A DNA stretch of 60,258 nucleotides from a virus (taxonomy: Duplodnaviria; Caudoviricetes): the IMG/VR virus record IMGVR_UViG_3300046002_006203, positions 1 through 60,258 of that record. One strand, given 5' to 3'. A program made the position numbers and the translations under genes. Position 1 is the stretch's first letter. Each line of letters begins with the position of its first letter. This document shows positions 1-59,200 of this stretch, piece by piece. The notes under the pieces were generated by a model. The model was given only the letters and a program-made list of their open reading frames with translations. It was not told the origin of the DNA and ran no database searches.

Positions 1-127
1 CCTGACCGGCAAAAGCGCAGTCAATGCCGAGTCAGGCATGAAGATCACCTTCACCAACGCTGGGGCAAAGAAGCTGTCTGGCCGCAAAGGCGATATCCTT
101 TTCCGTTCTGTGCCAGCATTGCGCGCT
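1..127 (+). repeat. 127-bp terminal direct repeat, copy 1 (circular assembly overlap)
   Basis: Identical to 60132-60258; lies inside a reading frame that continues across the join. Confidence 0.97.
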
Positions 128-4393: not shown

Positions 4394-4431
4394 CGCCGGA
4401 GCGCAATATCTGGTATCCATCGCCTCGTAGG

Positions 4432-4489
4432 CGCATAGGACGTGCGGCGGTCAATAGGGTTTATCCCAGCAGATCGAGAGCGTCATATG
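4432..4489 (+). promoter_or_regulatory. Lysis-operon leader: GGA-loop hairpin and alternative start-sequestering stem
   Basis: CGCAT-AGGAC-GTGCG (4432-46); CATAG.GACGT (4434-43) can pair with GCGTC.A.TATG (4480-89). Confidence 0.7.
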
Positions 4490-4552
4490 TTTGCAAGCAC
4501 ACAGAATTTGCGCTGCAACTATTCCGCACCTCCAGCATTGGGGGCGCAATAG
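4487..4552 (+). CDS. 21-aa leader uORF coupled to the holin
   Basis: GAGAG then ATG 4487; MFASTQNLRCNYSAPPALGAQ; its TAG overlaps the holin GTG at 4552. Confidence 0.4.
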   Translation: MFASTQNLRCNYSAPPALGAQ

Positions 4553-4935
4553 TGCAGGGCGAACCAATCACATTTTGGGACAACATTATCGCCTTCTTTG
4601 GGGCGATCTGTTTTTGGCTGACCGGAGAGAGCGGGCGCGTCTTGGTCGCGTCTGGCCTCGGCGGCTTGGTTCGCTGGTTCTCGATGGAGAAGCGCCGGAT
4701 CAGAACTGGCGTCATGTCCATCGTCGGCGGTGCAATCTGCGGGTTCTACCTGTGGCCCATCATCCTGCGTATCCCTACGGTCTGGGGCGCGGAAATTATT
4801 GATAAAGCGCCTGAAAATATCGCCATGGCTGGTTTCTTGGCGGGGACTATCGGCGTTTCGGCTGTGAAAATCATCACGGCAATCGTGGAGGCGCGCGGCC
4901 TGAAACTCGCACAGGGGAGTGACCCAGATGCGTGA
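4552..4935 (+). CDS. Putative holin
   Basis: 127 aa with several hydrophobic segments, directly upstream of the endolysin. Confidence 0.7.
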   Translation: MQGEPITFWDNIIAFFGAICFWLTGESGRVLVASGLGGLVRWFSMEKRRIRTGVMSIVGGAICGFYLWPIILRIPTVWGAEIIDKAPENIAMAGFLAGTIGVSAVKIITAIVEARGLKLAQGSDPDA

Positions 4936-5035
4936 TCGGCCAGTGCGGAAGGTCTTGCGTGAAGAGGCCCGCACTTGGGGCGTCATTGCAATCATCTTGC
5001 TGATCTATCTGGGGGCGCACGCATGGACTACCTGA
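4928..5035 (+). CDS. 35-aa single-TM protein (antiholin or lysis accessory candidate)
   Basis: MRDRPVRKVLREEARTWGVIAIILLIYLGAHAWTT; GGGAG upstream; overlaps both neighbours. Confidence 0.5.
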   Translation: MRDRPVRKVLREEARTWGVIAIILLIYLGAHAWTT

Positions 5036-5634
5036 CGACTTTCAAAGGCAAAGCAAAGCCTATCGACCCTGTGGACTATGGCCGCCTTGGTCGCCTTTTG
5101 TCTGTTGGAGAGGACGAATTGCGCGCGGTGGTCGAGGTGGAATGCCGTGGCTCTGGGTTCGATGCGCTTGGCCGCCCGAAGATGCTTTTCGAGCCGCATG
5201 TGTTCTGGCGCGAACTTGGCGAACAGAAGCGCGTCGTCGCGTTCAATCAGGGACTCGCTTATCCGAAGTGGGGAACCAAGCCATACCCCAAGGACAGTTA
5301 CCCCCACCTTGAGGCCGCGATGAAGATCGACCGGCCCTGCGCCCTGCGTGCAGCGTCGTGGGGGCTGGGGCAGATCCTCGGCGTGAACCACAAGGCCGCT
5401 GGCTATGCCAGTGCGGAAGCGATGGTTCTGGCCTTCCTTGACGACGAGGAAAAGCACCTTGAGGCTATGGTGCGATTCATCTTGGCCGAGAACCTTGATG
5501 ATGATCTTCGCCGCCACGATTGGAGCGGATTCGCGCGGGGCTACAATGGCCCGAAGTATGCCACCCATGGGTATCATACCAATCTTGCGGCGGCTTACGC
5601 CAAGTGGGTCGCGCGCCCTGATGTGAAGGCATAG
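5023..5634 (+). CDS. Endolysin, N-acetylmuramidase (DUF3380-like)
   Basis: AVVEVE..G.GF, LFEPHVF, SWGLGQILG.NH, W..FARGYNGP.Y motifs. Confidence 0.9.
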   Translation: MDYLTTFKGKAKPIDPVDYGRLGRLLSVGEDELRAVVEVECRGSGFDALGRPKMLFEPHVFWRELGEQKRVVAFNQGLAYPKWGTKPYPKDSYPHLEAAMKIDRPCALRAASWGLGQILGVNHKAAGYASAEAMVLAFLDDEEKHLEAMVRFILAENLDDDLRRHDWSGFARGYNGPKYATHGYHTNLAAAYAKWVARPDVKA

Positions 5635-29186: not shown

Positions 29187-29210
29187 ACGGACGGAGCAAC
29201 AGGACGTGGC
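29187..29210 (+). promoter_or_regulatory. terS leader with three GGA motifs; last in a hairpin containing the GTG start
   Basis: ACGGACGGAGCAAC-AGGAC-GTGGC. Confidence 0.5.
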
Positions 29211-30000
29211 CCAGAAGCCGGAACTCAGTGACAGACAGGAGCGATTTGTTCGGGAATATCTCATTTCCGGCAATGCCTCTGACGCTTATCGCAGGGCCGG
29301 ATACTCGGCGCGCGATGCAGACTCGGCAGGCCCAAGGCTGTTGGGAAATGTCCGTATCAAGGCCGCCATCGCCAAATTGACCAAAAAACGGCTGGAAAAG
29401 CTGGATATTACAGCCGATTCCGTGCTGGCCCGATACCGCGACATTGCCGATGCCGACACCACCAAACTGACAGGATACCATGTCGGAGCGTGTCGATACT
29501 GCTGGGGCGAGGGACACGCCTACCACTGGAAAACTGAGCGCGAGTTCAACGAGGCTCTGGCACAAGCCAAGATCAAGCTGCCCAAGGGAGCCACGCCGGA
29601 GCAAGAGGAGGTGTTGCTTCCGAAGATCGACGGAGGCTTTGGCTATCGCATCACGGCAAACCCATGCCCATCCTGCCCAGAGTGTGCGGGGCTTGGCGTC
29701 ACCTATACCAGATTTGCTGACACCTCGACGCTGACCGGCGCGGAGAAGCAGCTATACGAGGCTGTTGAGCAAACCAAGGACGGCATCAAGTTCAAGCTGG
29801 CCGACCGCGACAAGGCCCGCGACATGATCGCCCGCCATGTGGGCCTGGCAACCGAGAAGGTCGAGCATGGCGTGAACGACGCGCTGGCTCAACTTCTGGC
29901 TGGCGCGCAAGGAACCGCCCTGCCCATCGCCCCATCGCCCTATTCAGCATCACCAGATGCCGACGATGGTGATCGTGACGACGAGGACGAGCCAGCATGA
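29206..30000 (+). CDS. terS: Terminase small subunit with Zn-finger insert
   Basis: LSDRQERFVREYL..GNA..AY.RAGYS; CRYC..CPEC; upstream of terL. Confidence 0.9.
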   Translation: MAQKPELSDRQERFVREYLISGNASDAYRRAGYSARDADSAGPRLLGNVRIKAAIAKLTKKRLEKLDITADSVLARYRDIADADTTKLTGYHVGACRYCWGEGHAYHWKTEREFNEALAQAKIKLPKGATPEQEEVLLPKIDGGFGYRITANPCPSCPECAGLGVTYTRFADTSTLTGAEKQLYEAVEQTKDGIKFKLADRDKARDMIARHVGLATEKVEHGVNDALAQLLAGAQGTALPIAPSPYSASPDADDGDRDDEDEPA

Positions 30001-34341: not shown

Positions 34342-35217
34342 ATGTCTGTGAAGCTGAACCTGACCGATACCGACCACATTCCCGAAGATTTCACGCTGGA
34401 AAGCCTGTCATCGTCTCTGACGGAGGGGGAAATCGCCGCTCTGAATGATGGCGAAGACCCAATCCTGACGCCGGAGGTCGATCCGGCAGAGGCCGAAGCC
34501 GCTGCGCTGGCCGACCAGCAGCAGGCCGACGCAGCAGCGCGCGCCGCGCAACAGCAGCAGGCTCCCGCGCCGCAGCAAATGCCGGATACTACCGCCGCCG
34601 AGGCCATCATTGCCAAGACGACTGCGGATATCGACGCGCTGGAGGACCGCTTTGACGCGGGCGAACTGTCTCTGCCCGAAAAGAAGGAGGCCATGCGTGC
34701 ATTGATCGCGCAGCAGGCACAAGCACAGGCGCAGCTTGAACGCGCGTCGGAAATTGCACAGCAAAATGTGCAGAGCGCCCGCGCCCAATTCTACAGCGCG
34801 CTGGACCAGTTCAAGGCCAAAGCCCCGTTCCTGTGGTCGGATGAACACCTTGGCGGCTGGGATGCGGCCCTGAAAACCGTCACCGGATCGCCCGCCTATG
34901 TCCAACTGTCGATGGAGCAGAAGATCAATCTCGCCCACGATATGTATGCGGCCAATTACAAGGCCATGTCGGGCGGCAAGGCTATTCCGGCCATCGCTGG
35001 CGGCAAGGCTCAGGACGGCTCCGCGCCCAAGGAAAAGCGCACGGACGAGCGCGATCCGGTGCAAACGCTGGGCGATTTCAACACCGACTCCAATGCCAGC
35101 ATCGAGGACGGCACCTTTGCCGTGATCGACCGCAAGATGGGTGAAGACCCCATCGCTGCCGAGAAAATGTTCAACCGCCTGACTCCTGACCAGCAGCAAG
35201 CCTACCTGAACGCCTGA
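34342..35217 (+). CDS. Scaffolding protein
   Basis: Acidic, helical; C-terminal LTPDQQQAYL; between portal and capsid. Confidence 0.7.
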   Translation: MSVKLNLTDTDHIPEDFTLESLSSSLTEGEIAALNDGEDPILTPEVDPAEAEAAALADQQQADAAARAAQQQQAPAPQQMPDTTAAEAIIAKTTADIDALEDRFDAGELSLPEKKEAMRALIAQQAQAQAQLERASEIAQQNVQSARAQFYSALDQFKAKAPFLWSDEHLGGWDAALKTVTGSPAYVQLSMEQKINLAHDMYAANYKAMSGGKAIPAIAGGKAQDGSAPKEKRTDERDPVQTLGDFNTDSNASIEDGTFAVIDRKMGEDPIAAEKMFNRLTPDQQQAYLNA

Positions 35218-35246
35218 TTGGCACGCGTATAGAAGAGGATACGGAT

Positions 35247-35420
35247 GTGCTGATGAAACGAGTCCACCTGTCAGAAGGCCCGCAGCGCATCCGCATCGGA
35301 GAGGCGATCATTCACATTCAGAAGATTGGCGAAAACCGCGTCACATTTATGATCGACGCTCCGAAAAATGTGCAGGTTGAAGCCCTAGATCGGCCAATCA
35401 CCAAGCCCATTGAAGAATGA
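35247..35420 (+). CDS. csrA: CsrA/RsmA-like RNA-binding protein, 57 aa (not in the ORF track)
   Basis: AGAGGA RBS, GTG start; MLMKRVHLSEGPQRIRIGEAIIHIQKIGENRVTFMIDAPKNVQV aligns by eye with the CsrA pattern ML...GE.I.IG..I...V.....VRIGI.AP..V.V. Confidence 0.7.
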   Translation: MLMKRVHLSEGPQRIRIGEAIIHIQKIGENRVTFMIDAPKNVQVEALDRPITKPIEE

Positions 35421-35506
35421 CCCCTATATATGGTATGGGGGGATACCACCACGCATAGGAAGTGCTTGGGTCAACCGTTTTTTGACCGAAGGAGCATGAC
35501 TTATGC
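35410..35506 (+). promoter_or_regulatory. Capsid-operon promoter and leader switch
   Basis: TTGAAG-N18-TATGGG; GCAT-AGGAA-GTGC (35453-65); alternative long stem covers the SD and ATG. Confidence 0.7.
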
Positions 35507-36603
35507 TTACGAATATGGGTGTTGGCGATCCGCGCGCCGTGAAACGCTGGGCGACCAGTCTCGCCGTTGATACCGACAAGCAGTCCTATTTCAGCCAGCG
35601 TTTTGTTGGCGAGGGCGAAAACAACATCATCGAACGCAAGGTGGATCTGGAAGACGACGCGGGCGACCGCATCCAGTTCGACCTTTCGATGCGCCTGCGC
35701 GGCGGCATGACCTTCGGCGATGATGTGATCGAAGGCTCCGAAGAGGCGCTGACGTTCTACTCGGATGAAGTCCGCATCGACCAAGCGCGTAAGGGCGCAT
35801 CGGCGGGTGGTCGCATGACCCGCAAGCGCACGCTGCAAAACCTGCGCCGGATCGCCAAGGACCGCACCTCCGAATACATGGCTGAATGGATTGACGAAGG
35901 CTTCTTTGTCTACCTGTCGGGCGACTCGACGTTCTCGGCAGTGAACCAAGACGCCAAGTTCGGTGAGGCATTCGCTGGCAACGCCGTGACCGCGCCCGAC
36001 GCCTCGCACATCGTCTATGGCGGCGCTGCAACCTCGAAGGCAACCATCGCAGCGACCGACAAAATGTCGATGGCTCTGCTGGAGCGCCTGTCGGTGAAGC
36101 CTCGCATGATGAACGCGGTGAACCCCGATGTGGTCAAGCTGTCGCCCATCACCGTGGACGGGGCCAAGCGGTTCGTCGTCCTCATGTCGCCGTTCCAAGC
36201 GCACGCGCTCCGCACCGAAACCGGCGATCTGTCGTGGCAGAAGATTTCGCAGGCGCTGGCAACCTCGGAAGGCCGCAACTCGCCCATCGTCAAGGGCGGC
36301 ATGGGCCTCGTCAACGGCTTGGTCTTGCACGAGCATGAAACTGTGCGCCGGTTCAGCGATTACGGTGCCGGTTCCAACATCGCCGCTGCCCGCGCCCTGT
36401 TGCTGGGCCGCCAAGCTGGCGTCGTGGCCTACGGTGCCGGTGGCAATGGCACTCGCATGACGTGGGTGGAGAAGATGTTCGACGCCGACAACCAAGTCGC
36501 AATTTACTGCGGCGTCATTATGGGCATCAAGAAGACCGTGTTCAACGGCCTCGACTTCGGCGTTGTCGCTGTCGATACCGCCTGCGCTGATCCCAACGCC
36601 TGA
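35503..36603 (+). CDS. Major capsid protein (N4-gp56/DUF4043-like)
   Basis: DL..DAGDRIQFDL..L.G...GD...EG.EE.L; position after the scaffold; AAGGAG RBS. Confidence 0.9.
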   Translation: MLTNMGVGDPRAVKRWATSLAVDTDKQSYFSQRFVGEGENNIIERKVDLEDDAGDRIQFDLSMRLRGGMTFGDDVIEGSEEALTFYSDEVRIDQARKGASAGGRMTRKRTLQNLRRIAKDRTSEYMAEWIDEGFFVYLSGDSTFSAVNQDAKFGEAFAGNAVTAPDASHIVYGGAATSKATIAATDKMSMALLERLSVKPRMMNAVNPDVVKLSPITVDGAKRFVVLMSPFQAHALRTETGDLSWQKISQALATSEGRNSPIVKGGMGLVNGLVLHEHETVRRFSDYGAGSNIAAARALLLGRQAGVVAYGAGGNGTRMTWVEKMFDADNQVAIYCGVIMGIKKTVFNGLDFGVVAVDTACADPNA

Positions 36604-36677
36604 TCGCTCTGATGCTGGCGGCCCCGTGACTGGGGCTGCCACCACCCAATCCCACGCCAGCACAAGGAATCCCTCCC

Positions 36678-37121
36678 ATGGCGATCAAACAGACCAAGTT
36701 TTTCAAGGGCATGTCGCGCACGCCGGTTGGGCATCCCCACAAGGCGGGCCACACCACCACCCACCTGTTCACCCATGTTTTCACCGAGGCTGTCGCTACC
36801 ACCGATATCCTCGAATTGATCCCGCTGGCCCCCGGCTTGCGCGTGGTCGAATGCACCGTCAACACCGAGAACATCGCGGCCACCAACCTGACCGTTGGCA
36901 TCATGTCGGGCAGTGTCGGCTCTCTGGATGCGGCGCGCACGTCTGGTGATGAACTTGTCGCGGCGCAAGTCTCCGGCACCGAGTATTCCTCGTCGCTGCT
37001 GAAACTGGCCGCGCTGGCTAAGAACGGCGACACCGCCAAGTCGATTGGCCTCAAGGTCAGTGCTGACGTGGCAGCCGGTGCGACGAAGAAGCTGCACGTC
37101 AAACTCGTCGTCTCGTCCTGA
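36678..37121 (+). CDS. Virion structural (decoration-like) protein
   Basis: Follows the capsid gene; beta-rich 147 aa. Confidence 0.65.
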   Translation: MAIKQTKFFKGMSRTPVGHPHKAGHTTTHLFTHVFTEAVATTDILELIPLAPGLRVVECTVNTENIAATNLTVGIMSGSVGSLDAARTSGDELVAAQVSGTEYSSSLLKLAALAKNGDTAKSIGLKVSADVAAGATKKLHVKLVVSS

Positions 37122-47175: not shown

Positions 47176-47270
47176 TTGCTGCAATCGCACCAAATGGGGT
47201 ATGGGTAACGAACACCGGCTGCCATAGGATGTGTCAGCCATAGATACGACCGTGAGGGAACGTCTATGGC
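47176..47270 (+). promoter_or_regulatory. darB promoter and leader switch
   Basis: TTGCTG-N18-TATGGG; GGCTG.C.CAT-AGGAT-GTG.T.CAGCC (47217-39); two GCCATAG strands complementary to the start region CTATGGC. Confidence 0.7.
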
Positions 47271-50200
47271 GATTGACTTTGGCTTTGGCCCTATGGGCGC
47301 TATTCCTGAACCTCTGACTCCCGACCAAAAGCGGAAGAAAGTCGAAGGGATCGCGCTCAAGACGCAGGTTCCGGCCAACGTCCTGATGGCTCTCGATGAA
47401 GCCGGTATCTCCGACCATGAGGGCGCTGCAACGCAGATCGCGGCGGCCATGGCTCAAGGCAAGCCGCTTGATGCCGCAGTGGCGGATATTGCAGGCAACC
47501 CCGACACCGCCAAGGCGCTTATGAGCCGTGCCTATGACATTGCCGATGCGCTCTACCCGCGCGCCGCAGCGCCAGCGGCAACACCTGACACCGGACGGCC
47601 AAAAGAGGCGAACCTTTTGCGGGATGTGGCAGGGGTATTGGCGGTCGGCGCATCTGATGGCGCCGCAATGGGCGTTGAGTATCTTGGGTCTGCTGCCGAT
47701 CAGGGCATTTCTGGTGCCGCCTATGCCGCGAACAAATACCTTGCGAACCCAATACTCGAAGGCATCACAGGCAAAAAGGACATGCTGCCGACAGCCAGCA
47801 AGCCGCTTGATGTTCCGATAGCGGCTACGGCTGCAAGGGTTATTGCAGGATGGCTGGGAGAAGAAGGGCTTTCCGGCTATCTCGATGAAAGCCTTGTTTC
47901 GCAAGCGGCTCTGGATGCAGAGCAAAACTTCATGCCAACGGGCGACATTACCGACCCTTCTACACTTGCATGGGGGAAAGATCCGACCATTCGGGGTGCG
48001 GTGATTTCAGGAGCGCGCGTGCTTGGCACAATGGTTCCCGTGATCGCGGCATCGCTGTTGAGCAAGAACCCGACAATTGCAGCCGGGGCGGTTGGTGGCT
48101 TGATGGCCGGTGGCGATGGGCAACGACTTGCGGCCGACACAGTTGACGCCAAATGGGCTGAGAAAATGCCTGATGGCCGGTCACGGCTGGAAGCCGAGAC
48201 GCCGCTTTTCCAGAAATACCAATCAGAAGGCATGACTCAGGAACAGGCAAAAGACCGGATCAGGTCCGATGCTATGGCGTGGTCTGGTAATCTTCAGGCC
48301 GTCGTTGGCGCGTTTGGCGGTGCAGCAACCGGCGCAATAGCACGCGGAGGGCTTGCTAGAGCGGCGGGTGGGGGGATGGCCCAACGTGCGTCCGTATCCG
48401 GCATTGGGGCTGGGCTTGAAGAAGGCGCCCAAGAGGTTACGGAGGGTGTCGCCGCCCGAACCGGCATCAACATAGGTGCCGGAACTGATATCAGTGTCAC
48501 CGCCGAGTCATTTCCCAACGCAGTCCTTGGCGCAATGGGCGGCGGGCCTTTTGGTGCTATCGCTGGCGCAGCAAATGGGCCGCCCCAGCCTGTCAACCAG
48601 CCTAATCCCATCCCTCCCCAAACCTCTGGCGATGGCAGCGCCAGGGGCCAGGCTCCCGATATTGGTGCAGACGCCGGTTTTGCACCCGTGTCGGGGGCCG
48701 ACCAAGGCTTTGGTGCGATTCCACCCGAAGCCGCTCCGGTGCAGCCCGCAGCCCCGACCGGCCCGATTTCGGCGGCAGCGGCTAAGGCTCCCGACATGAC
48801 CCCGCAGCCGGTGGCGCCGGAAGCCCCGCCCATGTTCCCTGACATGAAGGCAGGCGCGGAAGTCCGCTTGAAGGCACCGGATGGCAAGATCTACCCCGCC
48901 AAGTTTCAGCGGGAAGAAGGCGGGATGGCCGTTGTCCGCATCGGCGGAAGCGAAGTCAGCATGTCGCCGGAAGAGTTCGATATGGCGGTCTATTCGGCCC
49001 GCATTGACGACGTAGAGGCCGAAGCTGCTGTCACCGGCAAGCCGATCAAGACTGCGCCCACGGCAAGCCCTGACGAGATTTTCGGAAATGTCGGCCCCGC
49101 CGACCCAGTGAAGCCCGACCTGTCACGCCCTCCCGTGCTGGCCGGATCGCTTGCGGCCCAAGCGCAGGCGAAAGGCCCAGCGGTTGCCACGCCTCCAGTG
49201 ATCGCTGGGCCTGCTATTCCCGCTAATCCACCCGCCGACGCCGGAAACAAGGCAAGCGAATTGCCTTCGGCCTTGGGCAGCATGGGAAAGGGAATGGCCG
49301 ATGGCCTCTATGATATGCTCTGGTCCAACGTCGAAAAGGGCAGCGTCAAGGATGCCAGCGGGTCCACAGACCCTATCCTGAAAGCCGCCAAGCGCGTGCG
49401 CTCCGTCGCTGGCAACACCCTGACTCGTGAAAACTTCAAGGAGTTTGCCCAGTCGCATTTCGCAATGATGCAGTTGCCGATTGAACAGCGCAGCAAGGTC
49501 TATGCGGAACTGGTGGCGAAATACACACCGGCAACCGGAGGTCAGAAAGATGGCGAAGCAACCACAGCCACCGTTCCCAACCCCGCAGCAAGCGGCGGAT
49601 TGGCTGGCACGGCACAAAATGATCCTGCCATCGGAAGCGCAGGAGATCCGCAACCTGCTGTGGAAGCAGGACTCAATCTGGATCGGCCCACAGAGTCACC
49701 TGTATCCAGCAATGACCAAGATCGCGGTTCTGAATTGGCCGATGCCGAGCCTGTCGGTCCACTGACCGGCAAAGTCGGCCAGCATTTCGCTGCCGGTGAC
49801 GAGCCGTTTACGACGAGCGGACGCAAAACCACGCCATTCCCGAAGATCGACGCCGCCTCTGAACGCAAGACTGCCAACACGGTCAAGCGGGTTGAACAAT
49901 GGCTGATGGCAAACGCTCTGGCCGAGGCCGAAGCGCGCGGTGACGACTTCAACGCCACCATGTTCCGCGCCAATCTCGAAAAGCCCAGCCAGTCGGACAA
50001 GGACTCCGCAGAGGCTTATTTGTTCGATGATGCCATGTCGGCAAAGAACATGCCGCCCGCGCCGAAGATCACCAAGCCTCTGGTGGCCGACAAGCCAGCA
50101 GACAAGCCGGATGAAAAACCGGAAGAGAAAAAGGAACCGTCCCTGCGCTGGGACACAGCCAAGGATTCTGGCCGCATTCCAGACGGCTATAGCGTGGAGG

Positions 50201-53200
50201 TTCAGGACGGCGATGTGTTTGGCTTCTACGGGCCGAACCGCAAGCAATTCTTCCCCGCTGGCCGAACCTTCATGGCGGAACGGGATGCCTCACAACACGA
50301 ACGCGACGTTGATGTGATGCTTAACCGAATGACTCAGCGGGCGGCGAAGAACGCGGATCGTGACGCCGAGGATGATAAGAAGCCGGATCAACCGGCCACC
50401 CCTGAATCCGCGCCTGAGGACGGCGCCGATACATCCAATGCGGCCCAGATGGACGCCGCTGCCGCCGAGGCCGACCCCAATCCGACACCGGCGCAGGCCG
50501 AGGCTGGCAACTACAAGCACGGCCATATCATGTGGAACGGGCTGGATCTGACCATCGAGAATGCCAAGGGTTCAACCCGCACCGGCGTCTCTGCCGATGG
50601 GCAGGAGTGGTCCGTCACGATGCCAGCGCACTATGGCTACATCAAGCGCACCACCGGCGCGGATGGTGAGCATGTGGACGTTTACATCGGGGAATCGCCG
50701 GAAAGCGATTTCATCATGGTGGTCGATCAGGTTGACGCCGAAACCAAGGAGTTTGACGAGCATAAGGTAATCATCGGCATCACCAGCGCGGCCAATGGCA
50801 AGGCGCTCTATGAGGCAGGTTTCTCGGACGGCAAAGGCGCGGCCCGCTTCGGAGGCGCGCGGAAAATGACCGTGGACGAGTTCAAGACTTGGCTGGAGGA
50901 AGGCGACCTTTCAAAGCCGGTCACGAACAAGGTCAGGGCGGCGCCGGGGCCGAAGATCGAGGACTTCGGGCAGAAGATTGGCGGCGCACGCAAGGACAAG
51001 GCTGCGCGCTCCATTCAGGATCTTCGCGCAGACCGCAACACCGCCACCATGACGCTGACCGAGGCATTCCCTGAGCCGGATTATGAGGCGCTGGCCGCAA
51101 ATGGCGTCGATGTTGAACGTCTCGCCTTCGCTGCCGTGGCGCGGTCCACCATCGAGCGCAAGCCGGTGGCACAGAGATACTGGAAGATTTCTTACTGGGT
51201 GAAGGAGGTAGATGATCGCCGCATGATCGTGGCCGACCTTCTGGATGGTGTGATTGATCTTCCGACCGCAATGAGCCGTATCGGGTTCTCCGGTGAAGGC
51301 CAGCCTGCCTTGATTGATATGGTCAAGCGGTTCCCCGTGGACATGATTGCCGAGGCGGCATCCTACAAAGCGCACCCTAACACCACCCACTTTTCCTATT
51401 CGACGGACCCAGCAACTGGAATCCGCACCTCTGTCACGTCCAAACGCTTCGGGATTGGCCGCCCGAATGACAAGAGTTACCGGATCAGCGCGACCTATCC
51501 GACCATTGATGATGCGGTTGTGGAAATCAAAGCCATGATCGAGGCGGAGCGCAAAGCGCGTGCTGCGGCTGGGCCTCTCAAGCGCACACGCAAGCCGGTT
51601 GCCTTGGGTATATGGGCTGGCAATGGCAATCTCTTCTATATCGGGTTCAAGGTTACTGACTGGGTGCAGTTGGCCGGTCCATTTGCCACCCGCGAAGATG
51701 CCAAGACCCACCTGAGCGAGAACCGCGAGTCTTTGCAGGAAGAGGCCGAAGTGATGCGGGATGGACCGGCAGAGCGCCGCACCACCAACTCGCCGCGCGT
51801 CGGGCCGGATCACCGCACCGGCAATGTGACACCGGAGCAATTCCAGAAGGCATTTGGCTTCCGTGGCGTGGAATTTGGAAACTGGACCACCGGCACGGAT
51901 CGTCAGGTGCGCTTGAATGAAGCCTACGACGCCCTGATGGATATGGCCGGTGCGCTGAATATCCCGACCGAGGCAATCTCGCTCAATGGTGCGCTGTCTC
52001 TGGCCTTCGGTGCGCGTGGAAAAGGTGGGCGCAACCCCGCCGCCGCGCATTATGAACCCAGCTATGTGGTCATAAACCTGACCAAAGAGAACGGTGCAGG
52101 ATCGCTGGCGCATGAATGGTGGCACGCGATCGACAACCATCTTGCCAAGTTGGATGCCGTGGGCAGCGACACGCCTGCCGCCATGTCTGGCACCAAGTCA
52201 AAGCGCCGCGACGAATATGCGACCGACCGCGCCCGCCGCACCGGCAGCCTGTCCGAAGCCGAGTGGACCGCGCTCAAGAAGCTGAAAACTGCCCTGACGC
52301 AGAAATCTGCGCCATGGTTCCTCCGGTCCCAAGCCTTCGACCGCGCCCGCTCTGAACCCTACTTCTCTACCACCATCGAACTCGCGGCGCGCGGGTTTGA
52401 GCGTGTCGTCACGGACAACCTGCAAGCGCGCGGGATGAACAACGACTTCCTCGCCAACATCGAAGAGGGTGCTGGCGCATATCCGACCACCGCAGAGGCC
52501 CGCCGCCAAGGTGTGCGCGATGCCTTCAATGATGTGCTGGACGCAGTTTCAGCGCGCCTGTCCGAAGGTGGCGGCACCAAGGTCGAACTGCCGCCCATCG
52601 ACCCGCAGCTTATCGAGGATGGACCGCAGGCAGGGTTTGAGTGGGAAAGCCCGACCGGCATCAAGAAGATCACCGCCCGCAATGGCGATCAGGTGACGAT
52701 GGAAACTCAAAAGCGCGGCGGTGGTGTTTACACGGACGATTGGCCTCTCGCTCATGTCGAGGACATGATCGACGCCGACCAACAGGCCATGTCGCCGGAG
52801 GGCATCGCTGCGCGTGAGGTCAAGGAAAAGGCCGCCGCCATCGCAGAAGAAAAGCGCTCTGCCAATGAAGCGTTGTCGGGCAAGGCCGAGGAATTGGTGG
52901 GCCAATTCATCTGGTCGATTCCGAAGGCCAAGCGGGGCCGTATTCCCGAAACCATCCGCTATGGCTCCATCGGCCTGCGGACCGGATCAGACTCGGACGC
53001 GATCTACCTGCCAAAATTTGTTCATGTGGTGCGTCTGGTTGACGCTGGCTGGCGTGTCCGGTCTGGCTTTAAGGGTGTGGAAAACCTGTATTCGCCTGAC
53101 CGCACCAGTTACGACAAGGTTTTCGACAAGAACCTGCTGGCCTTCGCCAAATGGTATGGCGACAAACTGAACGACGAGGCTGACACCGCAGAGGCAGAGC

Positions 53201-56200
53201 GGCCCGATGCCGCGTCGGAAGAGGATCTGGCACACCTCTTTGGTAAGGACGCGCCGGAACCGCTCAACGCCCCTGAGTTGATTGATCCGCCGGAAGAAGA
53301 GCCTGCCTCTACCGAGCCTGCGCCACCCGTGCAAGAGCCTCCTGCTGATCCGGCACCCAAGCCCGCACCGAGCGGCTTGAAGGGGCTGACGGAGGCGGAA
53401 AACGAGCAGTTGGCGGCCCTTGAGGCCCAGTTCCTCGATATCTTCAAGACGCAGATGAACTCCGGCCTTGATCCGAAACTTGTATCGGTCGCGGCCCAGA
53501 TTGGCGCGCTCTATGTGAAGGCTGGCACGCGCCGGTTCCGCGCGCTGATCGACGCCATGATGCAGCGCCTTGGATTGACGCTGGAGCAGGCACAGCCCTA
53601 CGCCCGCAATGCCTACAACCAGATCCGCGACGATATGGAACTGGCTGGTGAAGATATCGCTGACATGGACAGCAGCGCGGACGTGATCGCAGAAGTCCGC
53701 AAGATGCGGATCGTGGAGGCAAAAGCAGGGGGAAAGCCCGCCTCGCAAGGTGATGCAGAACCTGCTACAGTCGCGCCAGAGGCACAGGAGGGCGCTGCCA
53801 ATGACCAAGCAGGAAGTGGCGATGCGAGTAATGGAGTCGTGGCGGACGGCGCACCCGAAAGTGGTGACGCTGTGGAAGCCGGAACTGCTCCAAGTGGAAG
53901 CGGACGCGATGGCGGGGATGATCTTGGCGGAAGCGAAGGCGAATACGTTCCCGCTGGACCGGATCGAACCCCAAGTGTCGGAAGCGATGGCCCTGATGCT
54001 GCGTTCCCCGCCGCCGATGCCAACGCGGCGTCAGCGCAAAGCGGCGTAACTCCGCGCTCTGGCGTCAGCCAAGGCAATTACCAGATCACGGACGCACTTG
54101 GCCTTGGCAAAGGCACGGACGGCCAGAAGATCGCTGGCAACATCGCGGCAATCCGCCTTGCCCAGAAGATCAAGGCTGAAAACCGCTTTGCGACCAAGGA
54201 AGAACAGGACACTCTGGCCCGCTATGTTGGATGGGGCGGCCTGAAAACGGTCTTTGACGTGAAGAAGGCCAAATCCACCGACCAGTGGGGCAAGGCGCAG
54301 CGTGAGTTGAAGGAACTGCTGTCACCGGCAGAATATCTGGATGCTTTCCAGACAGTTTCCAACGCGCACTATACCTCCAAGCCGGTTGTCGATGCGATGT
54401 GGCGCGCAATGCGTCACTTCGGGTTCAAGTCGGGCCGCGCTCTTGAGCCGACCGTGGGTGTTGGCAACTTCTTGGGCGCGCAGCCCGCCGATATGGCGCC
54501 GGTCACGGAATGGTTTGCCTCCGAACTGGACACCATCACCAGCCTGATCGCCTATCACCTCTATCCCGATGCAACGATCCTTCCGGCGACCGGCTTCCAA
54601 GACGCACCGTTCCGCGATGGCTCGTTTGATATCGTGATCGGAAACCCGCCCTTCGGTGGCGAGACGATCAGGGACCGCAACCCCGCGCGCAAGCACCTGT
54701 CGGGGATGAAGATCCACAACTACATCATCGCCAAGGCAGGGATTCACCTTCGCCAAGGCGGGATCATGTCGATGGTGGTCACGCATCGGTTCCTCGATAC
54801 CGACAACGCCGAGGCGCGCGATGTGCTGGCAAAGGGATTCCGTTTCGTGGGCGCAATCCGCCTGCCGAATGACGCCTTCCGCGACAACGCAGGCACCGAT
54901 GTTGTCACCGATATCATCTTCCTGCAAAAGCTGGCCGAGGGTCAGGAGCCGGATCTTGCCGCCGCGTGGCTCGACACCAACGGCACTATCACCGTGGACG
55001 GAAAGCCAATCCGCGTGAACCGTTACTTCCAAGATCACCCTGACCATATCCTTGGCAAATCGGCCATGGACGGCACGATGTATGCCAAGGGCGGGAAGAA
55101 TGGCACGGAATACACCGTCCACGGCGATGGCCGCGACGTTGCGGCTGCAATCGACCGCGTTCTGACCGAAGGCATGGCCGCAGAGAAGGGCATCCTTGGC
55201 GACCGCGCGAAGGCGCTGGAAGAGGCTATTGCAGCCGAGGACACCTCCAAGATGGCAATCGGCAGCATGGCAATGCTGGATGATGGCCGGATCATCCGCC
55301 GCGAAATGAACCGCAGCATTTCTGAGGTGACGGAGCAAACCTTCTGGGGCGAATACGCAGAGCAATGGTCCTTGGCCGCCGACGCCATTGCCCAGATCCG
55401 CGACAACATGCGGGCCGGGAAGAAGCCGGATCAGGACCATATCGACCAGCTTCTTGACCAGAAGGACGTTGCCTACCTCAAGAGCGGAAAGAAGGCTTCC
55501 AAGCCCAGCCGTGTCGAACAGGCTTTCTACGATATCGTGGATGCAATCATTGATGGCAAAGCCGAATGGGCATTTGACGAGCAACTGGACCTGATCCGCG
55601 ACCATTCCGACAATAAGCGGATCGGAGCCAAGCGGTTCAAGACGCTGACCGGCCTGCTGTCCCTGCGCCGCAATACCCTCGCCCTGATCCGCGCCGAGTA
55701 TCAGGATTCGCCCAAGATTGAGGCCATGCGGAAGTCTCTGGACGCGCAGTATGAGGCGTTTGTGGCAGCCCATGGGTTCATCAGCAATCCGGCTGTGTCT
55801 GGACTTCTGCAAGGCGATATCGGGCCGGAAGTCGGCTTGGAGTCCAAGTATTCCGAGGAACTCAAGGGCGAAGTGAACGGCAAAAAGGTTATCGTTGAGC
55901 CTGAGTCAGCCACCAAATCCTCGATCCTGTCGCGCCGCGTCAACTATCCGCACAAGACCAATTTCACGGCAAACACCCCCAGCGAAGCCCTGTTGATTTC
56001 CATGTCGGAGCGGGGCCGCGTGGACCTTGCATTCATGGCTGAAACTCTGGGGCGCGACGCTGCCGAGATTCGGGCCGAACTGTCGCAAGGCAACGATCCT
56101 GAAATCTTCTTCGACCCCGAAACCGAGACTTGGGAACACGCAGAGGCGTATCTGACCGGCAATGTCCGCGCCAAGATGCAGAAGGCCTATGCCGCTGGCA

Positions 56201-59200
56201 TGATGGTGAACGGCGACGCATTGAAGAAGGTGCAGCCCGCGCCAATGACTTCTGACCGCATCGTTCCGGCAATCCGCAGCCAGTGGATTCCAGAAGAGGT
56301 CTTTGAGGACTTCCTGTCCGATATCGGGCTGAAGGAGGCCAAGGTCACGATCATGCCACGGGCCGGTATGGTCACGGCAACGGCGCGCGAAACGTCTTCG
56401 CTCACCGATTACGGCCAGCAATTCAGCAACTCGCACAAAACCATTGTCGATATTTTCACGGCAGCCGTGAACGGCAAGACGCTGACCGTCAGCTACAAGG
56501 ATGAGAATGGCAACACCCGCAAGGATGAGGAAGGCACCAAGCAGGTTACAGCCCTGATCGAGCGCATGGGCAAAGAGTTCCGCGCATGGGCCTATCTCGA
56601 CCCCACCCGCACCGAGGCCATTGTCACGGCGTTCAACGAGAAGATGAATGTGTTCCGCAAGCGTGAGTTTGACGGCGAAAAATACCTGAAACTGGTGGGG
56701 GCCAATACCGGAGCCGGTGGGTTTGAACTCCGGCGCACCCAGAAGAATGGGGCATGGCGCATCATCCAGCAGGCATCCGTGCTACTGGATCACGTTGTCG
56801 GGGCAGGCAAGACCCTGACGCTTGTTGCTGGCATCATGGAGCGCCGCCGTTTGGGACTGTCGCGCAAACCCATGATCGCAGTCCCCAACCACCTTGTCAT
56901 GCAATGGACGCGCGATTTCTTGCAGTTTTACCCTGCCGCGCGCATCTTGGCGGCCACGCCGAAGGATTTTGAGGGGGAAAACCGCAAGCGCATGTTCGCA
57001 CGGATTGCCACAGGCGATTTCGATGCCGTTATCATCGGCCACTCGTCGCTTGGTTTCATCCAGCCGCCCGAATCCGATTTGCGCGACGTGATCCAAGACC
57101 AGATCGAAGAGTTGCAGCAGGTTCTCGATGAAGCCCGCCGCAATGGCGAAAGCAAGCGCACGCTGTCCCAGATCGCAAAGCGCCTGCAATCCTACGAGGA
57201 CAAGCTGGACGAGCTGTCCACCAAGAAGCGCGATGATCTTGGGTTCGACTTCGCGGAAATGGGCATCGACTACCTCGCAGTAGACGAGGCGCACGAGTTC
57301 AAGAACCTCGAATACAACACCGCCCAGCAACGCCTTGTCGGCATGAACAACCCGACCGGTTCCAAGCGCGCCTTTGACCTTCTGGTGAAGGTCCGCGGCA
57401 TCCAGAAGCGCAAGGGGGCCGTCCACTTCGCCACCGGCACGCCGGTTTCCAACTCGCTTGTCGAAGCCTATTCGATGATGAAATACCTCGCTTACGATGA
57501 ATTGAAGGCGGTGAATCTGGCGCATTTTGACGCTTGGTCTGCGGCCTTTGTCGAGGCGGAAACGCGGTTTGAATACACCGCGACCCAGAAGTTGAAAGAG
57601 CGTAAGGTTATGTCGCGCTTGGTCAACCTTGGCGTTCTGTCGCAGATCTATCGCGGCTTTGCGGACGTGATCGACCGCAATGACCTTGAGCGCATCTATG
57701 CCGAGCAGATCCGGTCTGAGAACGCAAAAAACGGCGAGAACAAGAGTGAGCGTTTCCCAACTCCACGAGTAAAGGGTGGCGCACGCCGGTTGCTGTCGGC
57801 CCCGCCGACCGAGTCGCAAAAGTTGGCAACGGATTGGTTTGTCTCCCGTATGGCAGCGATCAAGGCGCGCGCATCCGACAAGGAATACCCGAAGATTGAC
57901 AATGCGCTTTGGGTTCTGTCTGACGCGCGCAAATCGTCGTTGGATATCCGCACGCTGCGCGCCGCATCGCAGATGGACCGTGATGAAAACGGCAAGGTCA
58001 TGCGCGCATCGCGCGAAATCAAGCGCATCTATGACAAGTGGGATGAACAACGCGGGACGCAGCTTGTGTTCTCGGACCTGTCCACCCCGTCCAAGAATGC
58101 CGACAAGGCCGCAGAAAAGGCGATCCGCGACTTGCTGCGGGTTGCGCTTGGTGAGTCTGAGGCAAAGACCTTCTACGAGAAGATCAAAGACCTTCCTTTC
58201 ATGGAGCGGTTCGAGGCGGCATCCGAAGAGGCCGAGACAATCGCAAGCGATCCGATCACCGACGAAAAGCGGCAGGATGCGATATCGGCTTGGTTTGCCG
58301 ACAATCAGGATGCGGCGGGCCTGATGCTGACCGCAGAGACTGGGTTCTCCGTCTATGATGATATGCGGAAGGTGCTGATTGAGGAAATGGGCATTCCCGC
58401 CCATGAGATTGCCTTCATCCACGACTACAATACGGCAGAAGCCAAGGCCAAGCTGTTCAAAATGGTCAAATCCGGGCAAATCCGCGTGCTGTTTGGATCG
58501 ACACCGAAGATGGGCGCTGGAACAAACGTGCAAGAGCGGGCCGTTGCACTGCACCACGTCGATAGCCCATGGCGACCGTCTGATGTGGAGCAGCGCGAAG
58601 GCCGCGTGATCCGGCAGGGCAATGACCTATACGATGCAGACCCAGACGGCTTTGAAGTCGAGATTCTGGCCTACTCCACCACCGGCACCTCTGATGTGGT
58701 GCTGTGGCAAGTTCTGGAGCGCAAGGCACGCTCCATCGGCACCTTCCGTCAGGGCGAACTGGACGCGGTGGACGAGGGCGAAGGCGACGCGGACAGCTAT
58801 GCCGAGTTCATGGCGCAATCGACCGGCAATCCCGTCTTCAAGTTGAAGATGCAGGCTGAAAAGGATCTGGTCGAACTGACTGCGACCACCTCCGGCGCTC
58901 TTCTGAACCGCCAGCGCGCCAAAGACTTCGTGTCGTCCTTTGATCGCGTGCGCGGGGATAATGCGGCCGCACTAAAAAATGCCAAGGACACCGATCCGGC
59001 GTCGATTTCATACACCTTGCCGACCGGCGAAAAGATCGAAGGCGATGCTGCCGAGTTTACCGCGGCGATGAACGAGGCGCGCGAGGCGTTCCAAGCCGAG
59101 GTGGATGCTTGGGATGATGCCTTTGCCAAGGTCAAAACCCGTCGCGCGCAACTGAACGACGAGGGCAAGAGCCGCACCGAGGCCATGAAAATCCTCAAGG

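What the first reader, a model, noticed from the sequence alone, without database searches (positions are those of the whole stretch)
35221..35506. Candidate phage-encoded CsrA-like late regulon: RNA-binding protein plus GGA-hairpin/anti-start switches
Seen: a 57-aa CsrA-like ORF missing from the ORF track (35247-35420) ends the terS-scaffold gene run. The capsid leader contains GCAT-AGGAA-GTGC (35453-65). The same bases can instead form a long stem that buries the SD and ATG: GCATAGG/CTTATGC (35453-59/35500-06), GTGCTT/GAGCAT (35462-67/35492-97), GGTCAA/TTGACC. The CATAGGANGTG motif with the same either/or pairing recurs at 4434 (lysis) and 47223 (darB), each 22-25 nt after GGTAT, a putative -10 region. 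Established: CsrA/RsmA proteins bind ANGGA in hairpin loops and usually repress translation; most alphaproteobacteria lack CsrA; Mu Com activates mom by opening an inhibitory stem. Inference: the phage protein captures the GGA hairpin, frees the start codon and activates translation of capsid, DarB and lysis genes. No Q-like late regulator was recognised in the genome.
Basis: partly seen in the sequence, partly recalled or inferred. Interest (0 to 1): 0.92.

Follow-up and report, generated by a model that had tools for sequence, protein, structure and literature searches.

The report
Phage CsrA-like gene and late-leader switch
A 60-kb phage carries a small CsrA-type RNA-binding gene beside its capsid gene, and its capsid, lysis and DarB messages share a conserved 5' RNA element that folds back onto the start codon, which gives a testable role for a phage gene so far written off as an accessory.

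Summary
ORF 35247-35420 is a divergent CsrA homologue. CATAGGANGTG occurs exactly three times (0.01 expected), before the capsid, lysis and darB genes. Each leader's lowest-energy fold is the long stem that buries the start codon.

The gene is not new. It is annotated "CsrA-like regulator" in the same position in Bcep22, Parlo, PEp14, Itty13, Skulduggery and ZX1, and the papers read call it a moron of unknown role.

What appears new is the cis element. Of 82 distinct capsid leaders from relatives, 68 carry GCRY-(A/U)NGA(N)-GUGC 39-64 nt before the ATG. Its loop and 3' arm co-vary with a complementary stretch next to the ATG: exact 6-mer complement in 26 of 61 own leaders against 33 of 3286 mismatched pairings.

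The same element precedes lysis and darB genes in relatives. Every complete genome checked also has a CsrA-like gene.

Weak points:
- No binding evidence exists.
- GGA is missing from 22 of 59 motif variants (AAGA, AUGA).
- The small hairpin shows no significant covariation.
- Locking the small hairpin lowers the modelled cost of opening the start region by only about 4 kcal/mol.

Best reading: a translational switch opened by the CsrA-like protein (0.45). This is a new variant of a known kind.

The parts
35247..35420 (+). CsrA-like ORF, 57 aa from GTG 35247. Close relatives start at the ATG 35253 equivalent (P0003, 55 aa). It is the last gene of the terminase-portal-scaffold run.
   Evidence: The same position is annotated 'CsrA-like regulator' in Bcep22, Parlo, Itty13, PEp14, Skulduggery and ZX1.
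35409..35436 (+). Promoter-like boxes for the capsid leader: ATTGAA (35409-14), a 16-nt spacer, then TGGTAT (35431-36). The -35-like box lies inside the last codons of the CsrA-like ORF.
   Evidence: Conserved as GTTGAA-N16-TGGTA(T) in the window-clade relatives (by eye). Not called by the E. coli consensus scan. The transcription start site is unknown.
35453..35465 (+). Hairpin 1 of the capsid leader: GCAU-AGGAA-GUGC, 4 bp with a pentaloop.
   Evidence: alone -3.1 kcal/mol. Family-wide, 98.9% of cells pair but covariation is not significant.
35468..35487 (+). Hairpin 2: GGGUCAA ... UUGACC, the apical stem of the closed fold.
   Evidence: Both arms change together in relatives (GGAUCA/UGAUCC in L002, GGGUCG/UGACUC in L008, by eye).
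35489..35506 (+). Capsid translation start region: SD AAGGAG (35489-94), the anti-motif strand GAGCAU..CUUAUGC (35492-35506) and ATG 35503.
   Evidence: Paired to 35453-35467 in the MFE fold. The cost to open it is 12.9 kcal/mol, or 8.9 with hairpin 1 locked.
35503..36603 (+). Major capsid gene.
   Evidence: Pfam Phage_capsid_3 at 1.3e-56 and phrog_334 at 2.1e-101.
4412..4489 (+). Lysis leader: GGTAT box (4412-16), hairpin CGCAU-AGGAC-GUGCG (4432-46), and anti-motif CGUCAUAUG (4481-89) containing ATG 4487.
   Evidence: (-25.0 kcal/mol). The ATG opens a 21-codon frame that ends at TAGTG on the GTG of holin-like ORF 4552-4935. An endolysin follows at 4975-5634.
47198..47270 (+). darB leader: GGTAT box (47198-202), extended hairpin GGCUG-c-CAU-AGGAU-GUG-u-CAGCC (47217-39), a duplicate strand GCCAUAGAU (47237-45), and anti-motif ACGUCUAUGGC (47260-70) containing ATG 47266.
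   Evidence: (-29.7 kcal/mol; hairpin alone -10.5). The gene is DarB-like.

Best explanation
The window is a complete genome of a Bcep22-like podophage of about 60 kb. Its last head-module gene before the capsid gene encodes a small CsrA-fold protein.

The capsid, lysis and darB messages each begin with a conserved 13-nt element, GCRY-(A/U)NGA(N)-GUGC, that has two mutually exclusive pairings:
- The stable default is a long hairpin in which the loop and 3' arm of the element pair with the bases between the Shine-Dalgarno sequence and the start codon, or with the start codon itself. Translation initiation is therefore held down.
- The alternative is a weak 4-bp hairpin that displays AGGAN in its loop.

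I infer that the CsrA-like dimer, made from the upstream portal-scaffold operon, binds this hairpin. Binding most likely happens as the hairpin emerges from the polymerase and keeps the element from pairing with the start region. That would raise translation of capsid, lysis and DarB proteins.

Shown here: the homology of the protein, the element, its three positions, the closed fold and its covariation, and the co-occurrence of gene and element across the family.

Inferred: that the protein is the factor that reads the element, and that the effect is activation.
For: 1. The protein is a CsrA homologue.
- Pfam CsrA gives 5.6e-5 for the window ORF.
- 13 of 17 phage homologues hit PF02599 at E<=0.01.
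- Their profile hits RsmE/CsrA structures at 5.5e-11 to 6.4e-10.
- The AF2 model has pLDDT 83.5. Its first ten Foldseek PDB ranks are all CsrA/RsmA/RsmE chains, with TM 0.50-0.65.

2. The element is non-random and sits at late leaders. Three exact copies are found against 0.01 expected. All three follow a GGTAT box.

3. The closed fold is the MFE in all three window leaders and in 8 of 8 relatives folded (-22.1 to -30.6 kcal/mol, z -1.1 to -5.95).

4. Covariation supports the closed fold.
- Motif-to-own-start duplexes average -12.06 kcal/mol against -8.91 for mismatched pairings (59 combinations, permutation p 5e-5).
- Mismatched pairs of the same loop class reach -11.55 against -8.61 for other classes.
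- An exact 6-mer complement is present in 26 of 61 own start regions against 33 of 3286 mismatched ones.

5. The primary sequence of the element is nearly invariant in phages whose capsid proteins are only about 50% identical and whose hosts span alpha-, beta- and gammaproteobacteria. The closed helix needs only complementarity, so this argues for a sequence-specific reader that travels with the phage.

6. Gene and element co-occur.
- 79 of 97 sources have the CsrA-like ORF in the DNA held.
- Of 13 with at least 1.4 kb upstream and no hit, 7 whole records were searched and 6 have the gene elsewhere. The miss is a 33%-complete fragment.
- In PBC5 and Atu_ph08 the gene stays behind portal and scaffold while the capsid gene has moved. 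It still carries the element.

7. The regulon is conserved.
- The element precedes the endolysin in Parlo and PEp14.
- It precedes the endolysin and darB in PBC5-type phages.
- It precedes darB and lysis genes in relatives G001 and G002.

8. Modelling: locking hairpin 1 lowers the cost of opening SD-2..AUG+12 by 4.0-4.5 kcal/mol in all three leaders.

9. Precedent: CsrA activates ymdA by destabilising an SD-sequestering structure (PMC7492729, abstract and outline read).
Against: - No binding or expression data exist.
- GGA, the hallmark of CsrA sites, is absent from 22 of 59 motif variants (AAGA 8, AUGA 14). Those phages also carry the gene, and loop type does not track protein type by eye.
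- Hairpin 1 is weak (-3.1 kcal/mol at the capsid leader). Its pairs change almost only on one side: one double change, and 41 of 500 shuffles do as well.
- With hairpin 1 forced, the capsid and darB start regions refold locally. The mean unpaired probability barely moves (0.30 to 0.33 and 0.36 to 0.38), and 9-10 kcal/mol is still needed to open them.
- In the AGACGU class, 0 of 8 leaders have the exact complement near the ATG. In PEp14 and ZX1 the partner strand lies upstream of the SD.
- The Bcep22 darB leader lacks the element.
- The window protein itself is below Pfam's cut-off. In the alignment it has Ala where most homologues and RsmE have the beta-5 Arg, with an Arg three residues later.
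- Co-occurrence has no negative cases, so it cannot show dependence.
Confidence: 0.45

Rival explanations
1. The leader is a protein-independent cis element. The long 5' hairpin stabilises the late messages or throttles their translation. It is opened by something other than the CsrA-like protein, such as ribosomes, a host RNase such as RNase III, or another phage factor. The CsrA-like protein acts on host or other targets, as the 'moron' reading in the literature assumes.
For: - The closed hairpin is the only state with significant covariation (against 88).
- GGA is missing in 22 of 59 motif variants.
- Hairpin-1 locking frees little in the model.
- Papers treat the gene as acting on the host (PMC9144972, PMC10269572 and PMC8310193, passages read).
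Against: - A purely structural hairpin does not explain why 9-10 positions of the 5' strand stay the same across alpha-, beta- and gammaproteobacterial phages while the rest of the leader is unalignable.
- The gene is a core gene fixed behind portal and scaffold in every complete genome checked. That is unlike a moron.
- The most abundant virion protein is unlikely to be left with a start region that costs about 13 kcal/mol to open.
Confidence: 0.3
2. The CsrA-like protein binds the element but acts as a canonical repressor or tuner. One subunit holds the 5' hairpin and the other the GGA of the Shine-Dalgarno sequence, which limits or delays capsid, lysis and DarB synthesis. Alternatively, it protects the 5' end of the messages from decay.
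For: - A hairpin GGA plus a second GGA in the SD (AAGGAG at 35489-94, GAGGGA before darB) 30-35 nt downstream is the classical CsrA repression layout (recalled).
- CsrA family members mostly repress (PMC7492729 abstract; PMC13443453 passage).
- The element lies about 10 nt from the presumed 5' end (by eye).
Against: - A conserved, co-varying structure that already shuts the start region makes a repressor redundant.
- The lysis SD (GAGAG) and many relatives' SDs (GAGG) have no GGA.
- Binding to the motif strand necessarily competes with the closed helix.
Confidence: 0.2
3. The motif works at the DNA level, as an operator or promoter-proximal site for a DNA-binding regulator, and the RNA pairings are incidental.
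For: - It always lies 15-25 nt downstream of a promoter-like box.
- Some database records name the gene a 'CsrA-like transcriptional regulator'.
Against: - The arms pair through G-U wobbles (GCGC/GUGC, GCAU/GUGC). These mean nothing in duplex DNA.
- The partner that co-varies lies 25-50 nt away next to the ATG.
- All copies are on the coding strand.
Confidence: 0.05

Closest known systems
'CsrA-like regulator' genes of Bcep22-like podophages (Bcep22 gp54, BcepIL02, DC1, JC1 gp47, CSP3 orf23, Parlo gp62, PEp14 gp9, Itty13, Skulduggery, Klebsiella LASTA/SopranoGao/ZX1, Ralstonia GP4)
   Same: This is the same gene family in the same position, directly upstream of the major capsid gene after portal and scaffold. 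The window ORF aligns with them.
   Different: The window protein is a divergent branch, 15-26% identical to the named phages' proteins. It has a 3-4 residue insertion after beta-1 and falls below Pfam's cut-off. The papers call the gene a moron with an unknown or host-directed role (PMC9144972, PMC10269572, PMC8310193, PMC7366521, passages read). None of the passages read mentions a leader element.
CsrA activation of E. coli ymdA (and Y. pestis hmsE)
   Same: A CsrA-family protein binds the 5' leader and destabilises a structure that hides the ribosome-binding site (PMC7492729 abstract; PMC10294631 title only).
   Different: Those cases involve a host global regulator with one leader each. 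Here a phage-borne paralogue would serve a dedicated element repeated on 3 or more late leaders and conserved across a phage family. Binding here is untested.
Phage Mu Com-mom translational activation
   Same: A small phage protein binds a hairpin just upstream of a stem that occludes the start region of a late gene and turns translation on (PMC6483171 abstract start; the mechanism is otherwise recalled).
   Different: Com is a zinc finger with one target. Here the protein has a CsrA fold and there are several targets, including the capsid gene.
Canonical CsrA/RsmE repression sites (GGA in a hairpin loop plus GGA in the SD)
   Same: The window's AGGAN pentaloop on a short stem resembles a CsrA site. 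The profile aligns with RsmE residues 1-46.
   Different: The family-wide consensus is (A/U)NGA(N), not GGA. The site is embedded in a bistable leader rather than simply overlapping the SD.

Membership tests
CsrA/RsmA family (Pfam PF02599) | The protein's own score is over Pfam's gathering cut-off. | tested here: not met
   23.5 bits against a 27-bit cut-off, E 5.6e-5, residues 13-44 on profile positions 10-42 of 53. The same result came from the whole-record search.
CsrA/RsmA family (Pfam PF02599) | Profile-level sequence homology to solved CsrA/Rsm proteins. | tested here: met
   A profile of 17 phage homologues that includes the window ORF hits 2jpp, 2bti, 1y00, 5z38, 1vpz and 7yr6 at 5.5e-11 to 6.4e-10 over positions 2-46. 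13 of 17 members hit PF02599 at E<=0.01.
CsrA/RsmA family (Pfam PF02599) | CsrA fold of the subunit. | tested here: met
   The AF2 model has pLDDT 83.5. Foldseek PDB ranks 1-10 are all CsrA/Rsm chains with TM 0.50-0.65 and rmsd 1.6-2.6 A over 41-47 columns. E-values are 0.036-0.19, none <=0.001, because the protein is short.
CsrA/RsmA family (Pfam PF02599) | Interleaved homodimer. | not tested
   No usable computational result (see Tried and rejected). This needs SEC-MALS or a structure.
CsrA/RsmA family (Pfam PF02599) | RNA-contact residues of beta-1 (Leu2, Leu4, Arg6) and beta-5 (Arg44). The list is recalled and comes from no call. | tested here: inconclusive
   Most phage homologues keep ML-L..(K/R) and V-P-I-x-R. 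The window protein keeps Leu2. It has K, V and H at the other beta-1 columns and Ala at the beta-5 Arg column, with an Arg three residues later.
CsrA/RsmA family (Pfam PF02599) | Binds GGA in hairpin loops. | not testable with these tools
   Only candidate sites can be shown: AGGAN pentaloops at 35457, 4437 and 47226.
Protein-opened translational switch (ymdA/CsrA, mom/Com type) | The start region is sequestered by a leader structure in the default state. | tested here: met
   MFE folds of the 3 window leaders and of 8 of 8 relatives. Own-versus-mismatched pairing tests support the helix.
Protein-opened translational switch (ymdA/CsrA, mom/Com type) | The alternative structure carrying the protein site is mutually exclusive with the sequestering helix. 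| tested here: inconclusive
   Hairpin 1 shares its loop and 3' arm with the closed helix, and 98.9% of cells pair. Covariation is not significant. Forcing it lowers the opening cost by only 4.0-4.5 kcal/mol.
Protein-opened translational switch (ymdA/CsrA, mom/Com type) | Protein binding raises translation. | not testable with these tools
   Needs gel shifts, toeprints and reporter fusions.
Any curated RNA family (Rfam 15) | Match at the gathering score. | tested here: not met
   0 matches in the whole window on both strands.

The most novel reading that the evidence does not exclude
A whole family of ~60-kb podophages infecting alpha-, beta- and gammaproteobacteria runs a private Csr-like system.

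- A core head-module gene encodes a CsrA-fold protein whose target is not the host.
- Its target is a dedicated (A/U)NGA(N) hairpin at the 5' end of the phage's own late messages.
- Binding flips a bistable leader and switches on capsid, lysis and DarB synthesis.
- The order of virion assembly and lysis would then be set after transcription, from ordinary sigma-70-type promoters, rather than by a late transcription factor.
- The relaxed loop (AAGA or AUGA in the Serratia, Klebsiella, Erwinia and P. aeruginosa phages) could keep the system insulated from the host's own CsrA.
Probability: 0.35. Interest if true: 0.85.

Novelty: new variant of a known kind. Interest (0 to 1): 0.7.

Why it matters
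Phage-borne csrA genes have been catalogued since about 2011. A 2025 functional-genomics paper still states that the role of CsrA in a phage life cycle had not been tested (PMC11879866, passage read; that phage is not in this family).

The literature read here treats the Bcep22-type gene as a moron that acts on the host. The data here make three points against that view:
- The gene is a fixed core gene of the head module.
- It has a concrete candidate target: a conserved, co-varying bistable leader on the capsid, lysis and DarB messages.
- The proposed mechanism can be tested in a week with gel shifts and reporter fusions.

If the reading is right, it would be the first phage-encoded CsrA with a defined function. 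It would also be an example of late-gene control by translation in a dsDNA phage family. In practice it would be a compact, orthogonal protein-RNA switch.

If it is wrong, the leader element still stands as an undescribed RNA structure (no Rfam match) found in hundreds of phage contigs (574 capsid relatives in IMG/VR).

Tried and rejected
- Close-homologue searches with the 57-aa ORF found little. tblastn against phage records gave only chance-level hits. The word-based search gave 2 near-identical proteins. The full HMMER scan gave 4 hits, one of them a 3235-aa tandem-repeat protein whose score is the sum of many weak repeats. I rejected that hit as meaningless.
I used a capsid alignment instead.
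- Dimer prediction (two copies, 52-row alignment) gave no verdict: median score 0.31, under the mark of 0.42. It is not used as evidence either way.
- Sequencing runs: no RNA holder is listed for 34800-36800, so no transcript start or level could be read.
- The E. coli-type promoter scan does not call the GGTAT box.
- A looser motif, GCRYWNGANGYGC, finds one more site at 11078 (-). It has no GGTAT box and its count is at chance level (3 found, 1.93 expected). I rejected it.
- I looked for a link between loop class and CsrA-like protein type. None is visible by eye. This was not tested with phylogenetic correction.
- I considered that the window's own csrA-like start region (GGAUGUGC at 35242-49) signals autoregulation. 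Relatives lack it, so I did not pursue it.
- The Gill et al. 2011 Bcep22 paper (PMC3187461) is not held. What it says about gp54 or promoters could not be read. Supplements were not opened.
- The claim that the leader element is not in print rests only on searches and on the passages read.
Full report
WHAT THE WINDOW IS

The window is a complete virus record of 60,258 bp with direct terminal repeats. Its terminase and capsid genes relate it to the Bcep22-like podophages. Megablast finds only Burkholderia and Ralstonia phages of that type. The capsid protein (Pfam Phage_capsid_3, 1.3e-56) is 47-51% identical to those of 69 phage records infecting Serratia, Pseudomonas, Erwinia, Klebsiella, Burkholderia, Ralstonia, Agrobacterium, Sinorhizobium and others. 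The closest cellular hit is a prophage (capsid 75% identical) in a Cypionkella MAG, a member of the Rhodobacterales. An alphaproteobacterial host is therefore plausible.

THE OBSERVATION

- The 57-aa ORF 35247-35420 exists.
- CATAGGANGTG occurs exactly three times, at 4434, 35454 and 47223, all on the + strand. The expectation is 0.01.
- With the GGTAT box upstream, 3 are found against 0.00 expected.
- The genes behind the three sites are the major capsid gene, a lysis cassette of holin-like, endolysin and Rz-like genes, and a DarB-like giant gene.
The motif strand pairs with the start codon region at -22.5 (capsid), -25.0 (lysis) and -29.7 kcal/mol (darB). The z-scores are -2.5 to -2.75.

THE PROTEIN

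On its own the ORF is a sub-threshold CsrA hit: 23.5 bits against a 27-bit cut-off, E 5.6e-5. It is not an orphan, however.
- Bcep22 gp54, in exactly the same place, is annotated "CsrA-like regulator". So are the equivalent genes of Parlo, Itty13, PEp14, Skulduggery and ZX1.
- A 17-member alignment of these ORFs with the window ORF gives 13 of 17 Pfam CsrA hits at E<=0.01.
- As a profile, that alignment hits solved CsrA/RsmE structures at 5.5e-11 to 6.4e-10 over residues 1-46.
- An AlphaFold model from a 52-row alignment has pLDDT 83.5. Its first ten Foldseek ranks in the PDB are all CsrA/Rsm chains with TM 0.50-0.65. The E-values are only 0.036-0.19 for so short a chain.

The protein is therefore a CsrA homologue, and the gene is already known in this phage family. 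The window branch is divergent. It has a 3-4 residue insertion after the first strand. It has Ala at the column where most homologues and RsmE have the beta-5 Arg. That this Arg matters for RNA binding is recalled, not tested here.

WHAT THE LITERATURE SAYS

- The JC1 and CSP3 papers call the gene a moron. They speculate about host effects. JC1 mass spectrometry found one peptide of it in virions (PMC9144972 and PMC10269572, passages read).
- A Bcc phage review links it to biofilm repression (PMC8310193, passages).
- Sobrero and Valverde list DC1, GP4 and others among 30 csrA-positive phages. They note that Burkholderia hosts lack a chromosomal csrA (PMC7366521, passages).
- A 2025 paper states that the role of CsrA in a phage life cycle had not been tested. 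It finds small plaques on knock-down in phage PTXU04 (PMC11879866, passages). PTXU04 did not appear among the homologues of this family.
- Four full-text searches found nothing about a leader element or a capsid target.
- The founding Bcep22 paper is not held.

THE CIS ELEMENT IN RELATIVES

I collected capsid loci from IMG/VR and from named phages. This gave 97 sources and 82 distinct capsid leaders.
- In 68 of the 82, a pattern of the form NNNN-(A/C/U)(G/A/U)GA(N)-G(U/C)G(C/U) lies 39-64 nt before the ATG (after dropping 5 rows where the expression caught another site). The usual form is GCGC-A(G/A/U)GA(N)-GUGC.
- Most of the remaining 14 show related variants by eye, such as GCGCAGGAGCUGC. 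One (L048) shows none.
- Upstream lies a promoter-like pair of boxes. In enterobacterial, Pseudomonas and Burkholderia phages it is a near-consensus sigma-70 promoter such as TTTGCA-N17-GATAAT. In the window clade it is GTTGAA-N16-TGGTA(T) (by eye). The element would therefore start about 10 nt into the transcript. No start site has been mapped.
- The loop is not always GGA. Among 59 distinct motif and start-region combinations, it is AGGA in 33, UGGA in 4, AUGA in 14 and AAGA in 8.

THE CLOSED HELIX CO-VARIES

In most leaders the bases just 5' of the ATG are the complement of the loop and 3' arm:
- GGAAGU with ACUUCC
- GGACGU with ACGUCC
- GGAUGUGC with GCACAUCC
- GAGUGC with GCACUC
- AAGAGUGC with GCACUCUU

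I tested this by pairing each leader's 5' part with its own start region and with those of all other leaders.
- For whole 5' regions the means are -18.67 against -13.46 kcal/mol (69 dereplicated leaders, permutation p 1e-4).
- For the motif alone against positions -18..+3 the means are -12.06 against -8.91 (59 combinations, p 5e-5).
- Mismatched pairs sharing the loop class do nearly as well as own pairs (-11.55). Other classes do not (-8.61).
- An exact Watson-Crick complement of the 6-mer core lies within -25..+3 in 26 of 61 own leaders. It does so in 33 of 3286 mismatched pairings with a different core.
- The AGACGU class is an exception, at 0 of 8. In PEp14 and ZX1 the partner strand lies upstream of the SD and the flanks close the helix at the ATG.
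- All 8 relatives folded give a long closed hairpin as the MFE (-22.1 to -30.6 kcal/mol, z -1.1 to -5.95).

The pairing through G-U wobbles, the distant co-varying partner and the strict strand bias show that the element works as RNA.

THE SMALL HAIRPIN IS LESS SECURE

On a 45-row alignment, 178 of 180 cells of the four proposed pairs are standard pairs. The changes are almost all one-sided (G-U to A-U, C-G to U-G), with a single double change. In the shuffle control, 41 of 500 shuffles do as well. The hairpin is weak on its own: -3.1, -6.2 and -10.5 kcal/mol in the window.

What speaks for a second, read-out state is indirect. A helix needs only complementarity. Yet 9-10 positions of the 5' strand are the same in phages of three proteobacterial classes whose leaders are otherwise unalignable.

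THE REGULON IS CONSERVED

- Parlo and PEp14 have a second copy 20-35 nt before the endolysin gene, after a TATAAT box.
- PBC5-type phages have copies before the capsid gene, before the divergent endolysin (an inverted copy), and before darB. PBC5 has four matches to the 12-mer pattern plus a 13-mer.
- In three relatives of the window clade the pattern falls on the capsid strand. It marks the capsid, a darB homologue and a lysis-type leader, each with a GGTAT-type box. darB and holin identity were confirmed by tblastn for L115, L120 and L112.
- The Bcep22 darB leader lacks the element. The capsid is therefore the constant member and the others vary.

GENE AND ELEMENT TRAVEL TOGETHER

- 79 of 97 sources show the CsrA-like ORF in the DNA held. 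It usually ends 31-137 nt before the capsid ATG.
- Five of the 18 misses have under 300 nt of upstream sequence.
- Of the other 13, seven whole records were searched. Six have the gene: PBC5 gp26 and Atu_ph08 gp17 directly after portal and scaffold, and four IMG/VR records at least 97% complete.
- The one miss is a 33%-complete fragment.
- In the PBC5 type the capsid gene has moved away but keeps the element, while the small gene stays with portal and scaffold.
- This makes it a core gene, not a moron. Because no genome has one without the other, co-occurrence cannot prove dependence.
- In the Cypionkella genome the only CsrA-profile match is the prophage's own gene.

HOW IT MOST LIKELY WORKS

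The default state is closed. The modelled cost to clear SD-2..AUG+12 is 12.9, 14.2 and 13.6 kcal/mol for the capsid, lysis and darB leaders. A capsid gene cannot stay that way, so something must open it.

The only recognisable RNA-binding protein fixed in this family is the CsrA homologue, and CsrA proteins read purine-rich loops of short hairpins. Binding to the 5' hairpin as it is transcribed would withhold the strand that closes the start region.

In the model, locking the hairpin lowers the opening cost by 4.0-4.5 kcal/mol in each leader. Local stems re-form, however, and the unpaired probability of the capsid and darB start regions hardly changes. The predicted effect is moderate, not all-or-none.

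I put this activation model at 0.45. A cis-only element with the protein working elsewhere gets 0.30. Binding with repression or stabilisation gets 0.20. A DNA-level site gets 0.05.

VERDICT

The CsrA-like gene is already known. The conserved bistable late-leader element and its link to that gene appear undescribed.

This is a new variant of a known kind: CsrA-type or Com-type opening of a sequestered start site, here phage-borne and serving several late genes. Interest is 0.7.

Noticed in passing
window 4487-4555: The ATG buried by the lysis-leader stem opens a 21-codon frame. Its TAG overlaps the GTG (TAGTG) of the holin-like ORF 4552-4935. The switch would therefore act on the holin through a short upstream frame.
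   Followed up: partly
window 29201-29208: AGGACGTG overlaps the GTG start of ORF 29206-30000, at the head of the packaging gene run. It could be a repressing site of the same protein. No fold or comparison was done.
   Followed up: no
window 35235-35255: The CsrA-like gene's own start region holds GAGGA and ACGGATGTGC. The latter shares GGATGTGC with the leader motif of relatives. The feature is absent from the relatives' start regions.
   Followed up: partly
window 35432-35447: The GGTAT box of the capsid leader is half of an inverted repeat, GGTAT-GGGGGG-ATACC. The repeat is not seen at the other two sites.
   Followed up: no
L016 (PBC5) and L015, L062, L077, L080, L093, L095, L096: In PBC5-type phages the capsid gene sits back to back with the endolysin gene. 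Each has its own copy of the element on opposite strands. PBC5 has matches to the 12-mer pattern at 961, 3949, 14018 and 32722. This suggests more than three regulated leaders.
   Followed up: partly
L009, L010, L011, L014 against L001 and the window: The named phages of Serratia, Klebsiella, Erwinia and P. aeruginosa have AAGA or AUGA loops. Bcep22 and the window clade have AGGA. That those hosts have their own CsrA is recalled. This may mean insulation from host CsrA, but Skulduggery (UGGA) and PBC5 (AUGA) do not fit neatly.
   Followed up: no
P0004 (3235 aa): A giant tandem-repeat protein scores 2.5e-27 against the 57-aa ORF through many weak repeat matches of about 24 bits (29-31% identity over 42 residues). 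This is an artefact of repetition, not a relative.
   Followed up: yes
L133/L134 (Cypionkella MAG contig): A prophage with a capsid 75% identical to the window's carries the same small ORF, boxes, hairpins and SD. The genome's only CsrA-profile match is that ORF.
   Followed up: partly
window 47266-60258 and 38-4393: The DarB-like frame runs off the end of the window. Its C-terminal part is at the start of the window (phrog_10089 at 3.1e-28 and 1.3e-257). This is consistent with terminal repeats in a permuted record.
   Followed up: partly
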